From a phage: a DNA stretch of 64,000 nt. The DNA is taken from assembly GCA_036439915.1 (NCBI GenBank), contig GCA_036439915.1_3065.1; one strand, given 5' to 3'. The notes below the pieces were generated by a model. It saw only the letters and a program-made list of their open reading frames with translations, had not been told where the DNA came from and made no database searches. This document shows, in pieces, positions 31,927 through 35,490 of the stretch (positions within the stretch are counted from its first letter, which is position 1; every line of letters begins with the position of its first letter). A program made the position numbers and the translations under genes.

Positions 31927-32787
31927 TTACACCGCCATCTTTCCTTTAATAGGAGGATGTGATTCATAGTTGTTAAGAACAAAATTATGAGGCTTTGCAA
32001 ATTGACTCAACCAAAATACCTGCGATTCTGTGTCCCATTCATCAAATTCATCTGGAAATTTTAATTGTAATTCGCATAAATCCATAGGTTCACGACATAA
32101 AATTTCTTTACATTGTTCTACGTGATTCATATAGATATGAGTATTACCACCAGAAAATATCAAATCTCCCGGAATAAGATTACACATTTTAGCTACAATA
32201 TGAACTAACGTAGCATATGATGCAATATTAAATGGAAGACCGAGGAAAACATCTACCGAACGTTGATACCACTGAAGGTCAAGGTATCCATTACGCACAT
32301 TAAACTGATAGAACATGTGACAAGGCGGTAATGCCATTTGCTTGAGTTCAGCTGGATTCCATGCTGAAACAACTTGACGTCTATCATTTGGCAGTTTTTT
32401 AATACGATCAATAACTTCTACAATTTGGTCTACACCGCCAAAATCACGCCACTGTTTTCCATAAATTGGACCAAGTTCACCGCTATGGTATCCTAAATCT
32501 TTTGCTTGATTTTCGTAATTTTCATCCCAGACTGTTTTGCCTTGAATTAATGAATCATGTTGAATTAATCGCAAATCATTTACATTTGTGCTTCCTGATA
32601 AAAACCATATTAGCTCAGCAATGCATGCATTCCAGGCGAGCTTTTTAGTTGTTACTGCAGGAAAACCTTTAGTTAAATCCCAACGCAATTTAGTACCGAA
32701 CAGAGCAATTGTTCCTGTGCCTGTTCGGTCATCAGTTTCATAACCATTTTCAAAAATGTCTTTAATTAAATCTTGGTATTGTTTCAT
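31927..32787 (-). CDS. td: thymidylate synthase, intron-less
   Basis: contiguous 286-aa ORF recognised as T4 Td. Confidence 0.95.
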
Positions 32788-32832
32788 TTAGTACCTTATA
32801 TAAATTATAATACATTTTATGAAGCTAAATAA

Positions 32833-33180
32833 TCAATACGGTTTAGCATCAAATTTTCTCTCAATTTCAGGCGTGAAATATAATTCTTTACCGCGTTTGG
32901 AAAAGCGACCAATAATATGATAATTATTCTCATCAAACGTGATATTACCAATATCCATAGCTTTCAACCAAATATCGATATTTCTATCCAGCTTTATGTC
33001 AAAATTCCAATACGGAGAACTATTACCGAAAATACTACAAGCGGATTCAGTGAAACAACTGCTATAAATCTTGTCTTTAGGAACTACTAATTGATAGACA
33101 CCTTTAATAAACTGAGGACCCTGCCACTTTGGCTGTTTCTCATCTTTTTCTAATAGAATAGGGTAATAATTAAAATTCAT
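32833..33180 (-). CDS. hypothetical protein inserted between frd and td
   Basis: 115-aa ORF in a 412-bp spacer; no recognisable motifs. Confidence 0.6.
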   Translation of the reverse strand: MNFNYYPILLEKDEKQPKWQGPQFIKGVYQLVVPKDKIYSSCFTESACSIFGNSSPYWNFDIKLDRNIDIWLKAMDIGNITFDENNYHIIGRFSKRGKELYFTPEIERKFDAKPY

Positions 33181-33199
33181 ATTTCCGCCGCGCGTTATT

Positions 33200-34026
<827 letters not shown>

Positions 34027-34037
34027 ATTATCTCCTA

Positions 34038-34370
34038 TTAAAAAGGATCAGGAACATATCCGCTAGCTTTAATCATTTTAATTAACGTTAACATTCCTTT
34101 GTTAACTGCTCGTGAGATTTCATCAAAAACTTCATCACTAAAAAGTTCTAACACGCCCTTCTGAACTTTTAATTTACAGCCAACAATTTCTTCATCGCCT
34201 ATAGTAAATTCATTACCACCAATTCCACCGAAAAACTTAATTACACCAGTTAACTGTCTTCCACGAGAATATGGGTCGTGTGATAAAGTAATATGAGTCA
34301 CCCCGGGTACAGTTTTAAATTGACAGCGAATGTTTACTTGAGCAATTCCAGTTACATGAATGTCAGACAT
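34038..34370 (-). CDS. hypothetical protein (frd.2 position)
   Basis: 110-aa ORF. Confidence 0.6.
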   Translation of the reverse strand: MSDIHVTGIAQVNIRCQFKTVPGVTHITLSHDPYSRGRQLTGVIKFFGGIGGNEFTIGDEEIVGCKLKVQKGVLELFSDEVFDEISRAVNKGMLTLIKMIKASGYVPDPF

Positions 34371-34380
34371 AATATTTTCC

Positions 34381-34623
34381 TCAAACAGACTTTTTCACAA
34401 TTTTCCAGTCAGCTTTAAACTGATCAACGTCAGAGTGATAAATCCAAAATCCTGCACTTTCTCCATCTTCATAAAGCGGACATCCATCACATTCATCTTC
34501 CCATCCCATGCCACGTAAAAGATGTTCAGCTTTTTCAACAAGTTCAGAATCTTTACCGATAATATTAAAATACCATTTACCTCTAACTTCTGAATCTTTG
34601 ATGCTCTGACGTTGTAATCTCAT
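34381..34623 (-). CDS. hypothetical protein (frd.3 position)
   Basis: 80-aa ORF. Confidence 0.6.
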   Translation of the reverse strand: MRLQRQSIKDSEVRGKWYFNIIGKDSELVEKAEHLLRGMGWEDECDGCPLYEDGESAGFWIYHSDVDQFKADWKIVKKSV

Positions 34624-35184: not shown

Positions 35185-35412
35185 TTATCGTTCAATCAGT
35201 CCCATGTAAAACTCTGCGTCTTCGGCATCCATACCATCACAGTATTCATTAGCCATAAAGCGTTCAAGAACTTCTAAAGGACCTTCAACAACAATTTGAA
35301 TACTCCAAAATTTAGAATCTTGCACACTTGTGATGCTAAGTTCAGGATAACGATTACGAATAATTTCTTCGATGTATTCAAAATCAACGATGTCAATATC
35401 AACTTTAGCCAT
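35185..35412 (-). CDS. hypothetical protein between frd.3 and gene 32
   Basis: 75 aa from MAKVDIDIV with AAGAGGAAAA RBS; ORF-track extension overlaps the promoter. Confidence 0.5.
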
Positions 35413-35447
35413 ATTATTTTCCTCTTTAATCATCAACAGTATTGCCG

Positions 35448-35490
35448 ATAGTTGTATAGTACCATGGAACGACAAGGATGTAAACAGTTT
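35448..35490 (-). promoter_or_regulatory. T4-type early promoter with upstream A/T tract
   Basis: minus strand GTTTACATCCTTGTCGTTCCATGGTACTATACAACTATC. Confidence 0.55.

What the first reader, a model, noticed from the sequence alone, without database searches (positions are those of the whole stretch)
32788..33199. 115-aa ORF inserted between frd and td
In T4 the frd stop overlaps the td start, as I recall it. Here the two are separated by 412 bp encoding a 115-aa protein with no motif I can recognise, with its own start 19 nt after the frd stop and a promoter-like TTATAATTTATATAAGG before td. It has no GIY-YIG, HNH or LAGLIDADG signature, so it is not an obvious homing endonuclease. Insertions within conserved nucleotide-metabolism operons of T-even phages are often mobile or host-interaction cargo.
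Basis: partly seen in the sequence, partly recalled or inferred. Interest (0 to 1): 0.6.

Follow-up and report, generated by a model that had tools for sequence, protein, structure and literature searches.

The report
Conserved small gene T4 lost
The 115-codon reading frame between the dihydrofolate reductase and thymidylate synthase genes is a real, selected gene of unknown function that hundreds of T4-like phage genomes already annotate as "hypothetical protein"; phage T4 is the exception that lacks it, so the finding is largely ordinary.

Summary
On the minus strand, frd (33200-33781) and an intron-less td (31927-32787) are separated by 412 bp. That gap holds a 115-aa ORF (32833-33180) starting 19 nt after the frd stop. 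In T4, frd and td overlap by ATGA.

The ORF is not new. It belongs to phrog_1928 and occurs at over 90% identity in about 363 phage records, including T2, T6 and RB32 (RB32ORF229c), almost always as "hypothetical protein". Diverged homologues (31-66% identity) lie between frd and td in at least five other Tevenvirinae genera, sometimes as tandem paralogues.

Within Tequatrovirus the ORF has diverged in step with its flanks under strong purifying selection (dN/dS 0-0.1). T4's frd is nested among ORF-bearing phages, so T4 most likely lost the gene. The deletion would run between two TAAATGAAA repeats 416 bp apart.

The gene can also move. Two RB69-like phages carry it as a clean cassette that is 90% identical to the window, while their flanks are only 62-75% identical.

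It is not a homing endonuclease. It matches no known family, has no invariant acidic or histidine residue, and folds confidently into a small beta-protein with only weak OB-fold resemblance. Function is unknown; I infer a non-catalytic binding protein with an accessory role in host interaction.

The parts
33200..33781 (-). frd (dihydrofolate reductase, 193 aa), the upstream neighbour
   Evidence: ORF list. It is 97.4% identical to T4 Frd and annotated as frd in all close matches.
33198..33206 (-). Left copy of the direct repeat TAAATGAAA. It spans the last frd codon, the TGA stop and two further bases, and is followed by TAA, giving a vestigial ATG-AAA-TAA.
   Evidence: Sequence, junction alignment and positions. 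Removing the 416 bp between the two copies reproduces the T4 junction GTATATAAATGAAACAATACC exactly.
33181..33199 (-). 19-nt spacer between the frd stop and the ORF start. It is unusually G+C-rich (AAATAACGCGCGGCGGAAAT) and carries the Shine-Dalgarno-like GGCGGA at 33184-33189.
   Evidence: Sequence. GGCGGAAA(A)T is conserved in T2 and F2. The spacer is absent from NHEP36 and from L009 and L010, where the frd TGA overlaps the ORF ATG.
32833..33180 (-). The 115-aa ORF: a phrog_1928 member encoding a small beta-rich protein of unknown function
   Evidence: phrog_1928 at E 3e-36. The exact protein is on 80 contigs in public data, with 363 phage records at 90% identity or more. dN/dS is 0-0.1 and the AF2 model has pLDDT 90.1.
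32788..32832 (-). 45-nt spacer between the ORF stop and the td start. It contains TATAAT (32804-32809), a MotA-box-like TTAGCTTCA, and the td Shine-Dalgarno AAGG (32794-32797). It may be a td-proximal promoter, but this is unverified.
   Evidence: Sequence. The promoter scan is not above the shuffled background. The spacer is specific to the T2/window allele subtype; F2 and NHEP36 have only 13-15 nt here.
32782..32790 (-). Right copy of the direct repeat TAAATGAAA, spanning the td start codon
   Evidence: The motif occurs 11 times in the window (both strands) against 2.6 expected, so it is a common gene-start motif and not a transposon-style target duplication.
31927..32787 (-). td (thymidylate synthase, 286 aa, without the group I intron or I-TevI), the downstream neighbour
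   Evidence: ORF list, compared with the split T4 td.

Best explanation
The ORF is a genuine, expressed-type accessory gene of T4-like phages (family phrog_1928) whose native location is the variable slot between frd and td. That slot holds zero to four small ORFs in different Tevenvirinae. Members of this family are its commonest occupants, sometimes as tandem paralogues. In the genus of this window (Tequatrovirus) the gene is resident and has co-diverged with its flanks. T4 and a few relatives lost it by recombination between the two TAAATGAA(A) motifs, which arise because the frd Lys-stop and the td start look alike. The reverse exchange, using the same few bases of homology, placed the gene into a few RB69-like phages. 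The gene lies in the same orientation as frd and td, so I infer it is read with them in the prereplicative period, from its own Shine-Dalgarno. The product is a soluble 115-residue beta-protein with a single helix in the order beta1-beta2-beta3-alpha-beta4-beta5, which is OB-like. The invariant residues are Q16, W19, G27, G91, K95 and G97, with Y29, N79, F93 and F102 nearly invariant. No acidic or histidine residue is conserved. I therefore infer that it acts by binding and not by catalysis. By secondary-structure position alone, the conserved residues fall in the loop after beta1, on beta2 and in the beta4-beta5 hairpin, which form the ligand face of an OB fold. The ligand is most likely a single-stranded nucleic acid, a nucleotide or a host protein. 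The role is dispensable in the laboratory and conditionally useful, such as host takeover or counter-defence, and is not core nucleotide metabolism. Shown here: the gene is real, its distribution, synteny, selection, loss/gain history and lack of nuclease features. Inferred: co-transcription with frd and td, the OB-like binding mode (about 0.4) and the host-interaction role (about 0.35).
For: The gene is real and under selection. dN/dS is 0.004/0.286 against T2, 0.036/0.56 against NHEP36 and 0-0.1 for other pairs. There are 23 clusters of homologues at E<1e-3 among 1.84 billion representatives, almost all 95-116 aa. The AF2 model has pLDDT 90.1 and pTM 0.83.

It is already known as an ORF. phrog_1928 matches at E 3e-36. 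355 records hold the whole junction at high identity and 363 records carry the protein at 90% identity or more, including T2, T6 and RB32ORF229c.

Synteny is old. A homologue lies between frd and td in KP17, Merlin, PM2 and ZX14, and in contigs L009, L010 and L016. Protein identity to the window is 33-46% for the ORF, 43-49% for Frd and 69-78% for Td. The second ORFs in Merlin, PM2, ZX14 and L009 are paralogues in phrog_1928.

T4 is a loss. Only 35 records have the T4-type junction. Within Tequatrovirus the ORF's dS (0.07-0.29) is like that of frd (0.08-0.23) and td exon 1 (0.15-0.33). T4's frd is nested among ORF-bearing phages: window-T4 dS is 0.135, window-T2 is 0.194. Deleting between the repeats at 33206 and 32790 gives the T4 sequence exactly.

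Transfer has occurred. Between NHEP36 and the window, frd is 61.6% identical in nucleotides (dS about 2), the ORF 89.9% (dS 0.56) and td 74.5% (dS about 2.4). NHEP36 is 92-100% RB69-like right up to both edges of the ORF. Most Mosigvirus records lack the ORF.

It is not an enzyme of a known kind. There are no Pfam, NCBIfam, PADLOC or PDB-sequence hits, and no invariant Asp, Glu or His in the 24-sequence alignment.

Confidence: 0.6

Rival explanations
1. The ORF is a free-standing homing endonuclease (as annotated in BASEL phage TadeuszReichstein) that cuts ORF-less frd-td junctions and drives its own spread.
For: One record calls it "putative homing endonuclease". It shows presence/absence polymorphism between conserved nucleotide-metabolism genes, as the seg and mob genes do. 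It was transferred across genera as a discrete cassette whose dS is far below that of its flanks.
Against: No nuclease family matches in Pfam, NCBIfam or PDB sequences, for the protein or for any of 24 family members. No Asp, Glu or His is invariant in the family. The protein is only 115 aa with an OB-like beta fold and has no structural match to a nuclease. The family is old, syntenic, translationally coupled to frd and td in other genera, and tandemly duplicated. Within Tequatrovirus it co-diverges with its flanks. None of this fits a selfish invader. The short-repeat boundaries and the phage's own recombination system are enough to explain gain and loss.
Confidence: 0.04
2. The protein is an accessory factor of nucleotide metabolism that works with Frd and/or Td, for example as a bridging or regulatory subunit of the dNTP-synthesising complex.
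For: It sits between frd and td in at least six genera, often with overlapping start and stop codons that imply coupled translation.
Against: T4, RB69 and most Mosigvirus lack it. About a quarter of sampled Tequatrovirus records carry an unrelated 68-aa ORF (phrog_9550) in its place. One family member lies in a different context, next to an RlaP-family gene. Gene order is conserved throughout T4-like genomes whatever the function.
Confidence: 0.12
3. The ORF was inserted into an ancestral T4/RB69-type overlapping junction in the lineage of this window, so T4 keeps the original state.
For: RB69 and most Mosigvirus, the sister genus, have the same ATGA overlap as T4. Insertion into that junction demonstrably happened in NHEP36 and NHEP29. 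A vestigial ATG-AAA-TAA after the frd stop resembles a duplicated gene start. The ORF is more similar to the L009/L010 copies than Frd is.
Against: The ORF-bearing junction is about ten times commoner than the T4 type in Tequatrovirus. ORF dS matches flank dS within the genus, and T4's frd is nested among ORF-bearing phages. More distant genera carry homologues in the same slot. The Tequatrovirus alleles (ORF A only, ORF C only, none) are subsets of the A-B-C cluster seen in L009.
Confidence: 0.2
4. The ORF is a spurious frame in a non-coding spacer.
For: It has no known domain and is small, and the sequence is AT-rich and so carries many chance ORFs.
Against: dN/dS is 0-0.1. Intact homologues exist at 30-66% identity. 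The structure prediction is confident, the ORF has its own Shine-Dalgarno sequence, and it matches a PHROG family.
Confidence: 0.01

Closest known systems
phrog_1928, also annotated as RB32ORF229c, T2 EcT2_00240 (BBF63391) and T6 YP_010067382, among hundreds of "hypothetical protein" entries in Tequatrovirus genomes
   Same: It is the same gene at 92-100% protein identity, in the same place between frd and td.
   Different: Nothing differs. None of these entries has an assigned function.
Free-standing homing endonuclease genes of T-even phages (seg and mob genes, for example mobE between nrdA and nrdB)
   Same: It is a small gene lodged between conserved nucleotide-metabolism genes. It is present in some close relatives and absent in others, and can appear in a foreign genomic background.
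   Different: It has no GIY-YIG, HNH or other nuclease domain and no conserved catalytic residues. It is long resident, co-diverges with its flanks in its own genus, and has tandem paralogues.
OB-fold ligand-binding domains (SSB, RPA, Teb1, S1 and cold-shock type)
   Same: The predicted order of elements is beta1-beta2-beta3-helix-beta4-beta5. The weak structural hits are mostly OB folds. The conserved residues are aromatic, basic and Gln/Asn.
Variable accessory-gene slots of T4-type genomes
   Same: Differential presence of small early ORFs between core genes, with gain and loss at very short homologies.
   Different: Here the slot lies inside a core nucleotide-metabolism operon. The boundary homology is simply the shared gene-start and stop motif TAAATGAA, not a promoter/stem-loop cassette.

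Membership tests
phrog_1928 (uncharacterised T4-like phage protein family) | Significant full-length match to the family profile | tested here: met
   E 3.1e-36, residues 4-111 against profile positions 2-125 of 126. The tandem paralogues also match.
phrog_1928 (uncharacterised T4-like phage protein family) | Conserved motifs Q-x-x-W, G-[IV]-Y, G-N and G-R-F-x-K-x-G shared with homologues | tested here: met
   In the 24-sequence alignment, Q16, W19, G27, G91, K95 and G97 are invariant. L9, Y29, N79, F93 and F102 are at least 90% conserved.
Homing endonucleases (GIY-YIG, HNH, LAGLIDADG, PD-(D/E)xK, EDxHD) | Recognisable catalytic domain or motif | tested here: not met
   No Pfam or NCBIfam family matches at E up to 10 for the protein. 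Across 24 members, each weak Pfam hit was matched by only one member; one of these single-member hits was to a nuclease family (PF18431 RNAse_A_bac, E 0.14). There is no PDB sequence match.
Homing endonucleases (GIY-YIG, HNH, LAGLIDADG, PD-(D/E)xK, EDxHD) | Conserved metal-binding or catalytic Asp, Glu or His residues | tested here: not met
   No acidic or histidine column is invariant or at least 90% conserved in alignment A2.
Homing endonucleases (GIY-YIG, HNH, LAGLIDADG, PD-(D/E)xK, EDxHD) | Site-specific cleavage of the ORF-less allele and biased inheritance in crosses | not testable with these tools
   This needs biochemistry and phage crosses.
OB-fold domains | Five-stranded barrel with a helix between strands 3 and 4 | tested here: inconclusive
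OB-fold domains | Binding of an oligonucleotide, oligosaccharide or protein on the beta2-beta3/L12/L45 face | not testable with these tools
   Conserved residues fall in those elements by sequence position only. No coordinates or binding data were available.
Horizontally exchanged accessory cassette of T4-type phages | Presence/absence polymorphism among close relatives | tested here: met
   Tequatrovirus: about 363 records with the ORF, 35 with the T4-type junction, and a third allele of about 205 bp. Mosigvirus: at most 4 records cover 80% or more of the NHEP36 frd-ORF-td query (NHEP36 itself and the listed NHEP29 among them), and most lack the ORF.
Horizontally exchanged accessory cassette of T4-type phages | Divergence of the cassette much lower than that of its flanks between lineages | tested here: met
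   Window against NHEP36: dS is 0.56 for the ORF, about 2.0 for frd and about 2.4 for td. The block boundaries are sharp.
Horizontally exchanged accessory cassette of T4-type phages | Own promoter or terminator that makes it an autonomous expression unit | tested here: inconclusive
   A TATAAT and a MotA-box-like element lie downstream of the ORF, facing td. No promoter lies between frd and the ORF and no terminator was found. The scan is not above the shuffled background.
Known anti-phage defence proteins (PADLOC) | Match to a defence-system protein model | tested here: not met
   0 families at E up to 10.

The most novel reading that the evidence does not exclude
The protein is a counter-defence or host-takeover effector with an essentially new small beta fold. 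It might, for example, sequester a nucleotide signal or nucleic acid, or block a host sensor. On this reading it is kept by selection in most T-even phages, swapped between genera at the frd-td slot, and missing from the laboratory model T4, which would explain why it has never been studied.
Probability: 0.25. Interest if true: 0.55.

Novelty: already known. Interest (0 to 1): 0.27.

Why it matters
As it stands, this is one more uncharacterised small gene of T-even phages, and databases have listed it for years. Its modest value is as a reminder that T4 is not representative of its genus at this locus. Most relatives, including T2 and T6, carry a strongly selected, well-folded protein of unknown function inside the frd-td operon. 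The frd-td junction is a small, cleanly delimited slot where accessory genes are lost, swapped and transferred between genera using only 8-9 bases of homology. If the protein proved to be a counter-defence or host-takeover factor it would add a new fold to that repertoire. It would also be easy to test, because natural plus and minus phages already exist: T2 and T6 against T4, and NHEP36 against RB69.

Tried and rejected
1. Sequence-family searches of the ORF gave nothing: Pfam, NCBIfam, PADLOC, PDB sequences, and all 24 family members scanned singly.
3. Literature searches for RB32ORF229c, phrog_1928, T-even accessory or anti-defence screens and phage essentiality screens found no functional data on this gene.
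4. A lead from a bioRxiv paper (10.1101/2024.12.17.629029) was checked and rejected. "T2 gp9" is an activator of the bacterial sensor bNACHT11, absent from T4 and present in 57% of Tequatrovirus. It is YP_010073657, between cef and motB, a different gene.
5. I considered linkage between ORF absence and the td intron/I-TevI, that is, co-conversion during intron homing. It is rejected as a general rule: T6, FL34 and ESCO58 have both ORF and intron, while T2, RB27 and this window have the ORF without the intron.
6. I considered the TAAATGAAA repeats as a transposon-like target-site duplication and rejected it. The motif is a common gene-start sequence (11 copies against 2.6 expected), and it follows from the frd Lys-stop and the ATG-AA start shared by the ORF and td.
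7. No paralogue was found elsewhere in the window (six-frame profile search).

Full report
**What is there.** The three genes lie on the minus strand. frd occupies 33200-33781 (193 aa), a 115-aa ATG-initiated ORF occupies 32833-33180, and td occupies 31927-32787 (286 aa, uninterrupted).
- The ORF starts 19 nt after the frd stop, behind a Shine-Dalgarno-like GGCGGA.
- A 45-nt spacer with a perfect TATAAT separates the ORF from td.
- A consensus scan finds no more promoter-like sites here than in shuffled sequence, and no terminator. The promoter remains a reading, not a result.

**It is a real gene.**
- Against the T2 copy, dN is 0.004 and dS 0.286. Against the copy in the Mosigvirus phage NHEP36, dN is 0.036 and dS 0.56. 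Other pairs give dN/dS of 0-0.1.
- A profile search of 1.84 billion representative proteins finds 23 clusters, nearly all 95-116 aa.
- A 24-sequence alignment has invariant Q16, W19, G27, G91, K95 and G97, and nearly invariant L9, Y29, N79, F93 and F102.
- AlphaFold2 on that alignment gives mean pLDDT 90.1 and pTM 0.83.

**It is already known as an ORF.**
- It matches phrog_1928, a family of unknown function (E 3e-36).
- The whole junction is present at high identity in 355 phage records.
- The protein is found at 90% identity or more in 363 records, including T2, T6 and RB51/RB32 (locus name RB32ORF229c). It is almost always labelled "hypothetical protein".
- One BASEL record calls it "putative homing endonuclease". 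I found no support for that label.

**Where it belongs.** A further 227 records hold homologues below 60% identity, again overlapping frd and td annotations. I inspected four genera.
- In Jiaodavirus KP17 a single homologue overlaps both frd and td.
- In Moonvirus Merlin, Mosugukvirus PM2 and Kanagawavirus ZX14 it is followed by a second ORF of 115-119 aa. That second ORF is a paralogue in the same PHROG.
- Protein identity to the window is 33-46% for the ORF, 43-49% for Frd and 69-78% for Td. The ORF is therefore about as diverged as Frd.
- The nearest non-Tequatrovirus homologues (63-66%) come from two uncultured T4-like contigs. Both contigs (L009 and L010) show frd, ORF A and its paralogue B in that order. 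In L009 a 69-aa ORF C and td follow, while L010 ends after B.
- A more distant member (31%) sits in a frd-td interval that holds four small ORFs. One member lies elsewhere, next to an RlaP-family gene.
- The frd-td interval is thus a variable slot with zero to four small genes, and this family is its usual occupant.

**Three alleles in Tequatrovirus.**
- Using the T4 sequence as query, nearly all records match in two pieces with extra DNA at the junction.
- About two thirds of an evenly spaced sample carry roughly 415 bp extra, which is this ORF. About a quarter carry roughly 205 bp extra.
- The 205-bp allele (for example ACG-C40) encodes an unrelated 68-aa ORF (phrog_9550) whose ATG overlaps the frd stop. 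It is the homologue of ORF C in L009.
- Only 35 records have the T4-type overlap. They are T4 isolates plus RB55, RB59, vB_EcoM_112, G28, F1, FN, HY03, SG1, JEP6, FL12, FL18, ECO07P1, ECO07P3 and a few others.
- The three alleles (A only, C only, none) are subsets of the A-B-C cluster.
- Presence of the ORF is independent of the td intron.

**Loss in T4.**
- Within Tequatrovirus the ORF's synonymous divergence (0.07-0.29) matches that of frd (0.08-0.23) and td exon 1 (0.15-0.33).
- T4's frd is nested among ORF-bearing phages: window-T4 dS is 0.135 and window-T2 dS is 0.194.
- The ORF segment is bounded by two copies of TAAATGAAA, at 33206 and 32790, 416 bp apart. Deleting between them yields the T4 junction base for base.
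- The motif is a common gene-start sequence in this genome (11 copies against 2.6 expected). It arises here because frd ends Lys-TGA and both the ORF and td begin ATG-AA. It is a substrate for short-homology recombination, not a transposition footprint.
- T4 also lacks two further small genes that this window has between frd.1 and frd. This fits a generally reduced region in T4.

**Gain in Mosigvirus.**
- RB69 and most of its genus have the same ATGA overlap as T4. NHEP36 and NHEP29 carry the ORF.
- NHEP36 is 97% RB69-like in Frd and Td, yet its ORF is 93% identical in protein to the window's.
- In nucleotides, the window and NHEP36 are 61.6% identical in frd (dS about 2), 89.9% in the ORF (dS 0.56) and 74.5% in td (dS about 2.4).
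- A sliding comparison shows NHEP36 tracking RB69 at 92-100% up to both edges of the ORF. The ORF block tracks the window at 78-100%.
- The gene therefore entered an RB69-like genome as a clean cassette of about 363 bp, with crossovers within a few tens of bases of its ends.
The direction is wrong for the genome in hand.

**What the protein might do.**
- No family, defence model or solved structure matches by sequence.
- The model is beta-rich with one helix, in the order beta1-beta2-beta3-alpha-beta4-beta5.
- BFVD returns only uncharacterised proteins of T4-like phages of Pectobacterium, Serratia, Erwinia and Aeromonas.
- No acidic or histidine residue is conserved, which argues against a nuclease or other metal-dependent enzyme.
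- The conserved residues are aromatic, basic and amide side chains plus glycines. They lie in the loop after beta1, on beta2 and in the beta4-beta5 hairpin.
- I infer a non-catalytic binder and hold that view with moderate-to-low confidence.
- The gene is dispensable (T4 and RB69 lack it), replaceable by an unrelated ORF, strongly selected where present, and exchanged between genera. An accessory host-interaction role therefore seems more likely than a role in dTMP synthesis. This is inference, and no experiment bearing on it was found.

**Verdict.**
In this lineage, however, it is resident, T4 is the deletion, and the gene has long been annotated.
- Interest is low to moderate.

Noticed in passing
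window 31927-32787 (-): td is a single uninterrupted 286-aa ORF. The group I intron with I-TevI that splits T4 td is absent here, as in T2. T6 and many others have both the intron and the 115-aa ORF.
   Followed up: partly
window 33781-34026 (-) and 34038-34370 (-): Two more small genes lie between the frd.1 homologue (DUF5417, 34381-34623) and frd: an 81-aa ORF with no family and a 110-aa DUF7247 protein. T4 has neither, only 71 nt between frd.1 and frd. T2, T6 and the uncultured contigs L009 and L010 have them. T4 therefore looks reduced across this whole region.
   Followed up: partly
L007 (ACG-C40, JN986846) about 489-694; L009 4670-4879: There is a third frd-td allele in Tequatrovirus: a 68-aa ORF (phrog_9550, unknown function) whose ATG overlaps the frd TGA and whose stop abuts the td ATG. 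In ACG-C40 it is annotated only as a 42-aa fragment. Its homologue is the third gene of the frd-A-B-C-td cluster in contig L009.
   Followed up: partly
L012 (phage F2, MN864145) 994-1611: frd is annotated as 618 nt and overlaps the ORF start. In F2 the sequence at the usual frd stop reads TATAAAAATGAAATAG, so the reading frame or stop differs from T2 and the window. F2 is also a mosaic: its Frd is 86% window-like, while its Td is closer to RB69 (89%) than to the window (82%).
   Followed up: no
L016 2245-3518 (uncultured T4-like contig): Four small ORFs (148, 106, 95 and 76 aa) fill the frd-td interval. Only the 95-aa one was identified as a family member, and the others were not examined.
   Followed up: no
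L017 1248-1577 (ENA contig k141_230232): A distant family member (P0023, 109 aa) lies outside the frd-td context, directly upstream of an RlaP-family (PF10127) gene and a few kb from a RegB homologue.
   Followed up: no
window 33181-33199 (-): The 19-nt spacer after frd contains CGCGCGGCGG, a strikingly G+C-rich run for a genome with 36% G+C. It is conserved with small changes in T2 and F2 and absent where frd and the ORF overlap (NHEP36, L009, L010). Its origin was not explained.
   Followed up: no
window 35185-35475 (-): The frd.3 homologue (PF05798) as listed starts at a TTG and is 96 aa, with a weak sub-threshold RelB-antitoxin-like match at its N-terminus (E 7e-4, below the Pfam cut-off). 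The true start is probably the internal ATG.
   Followed up: no
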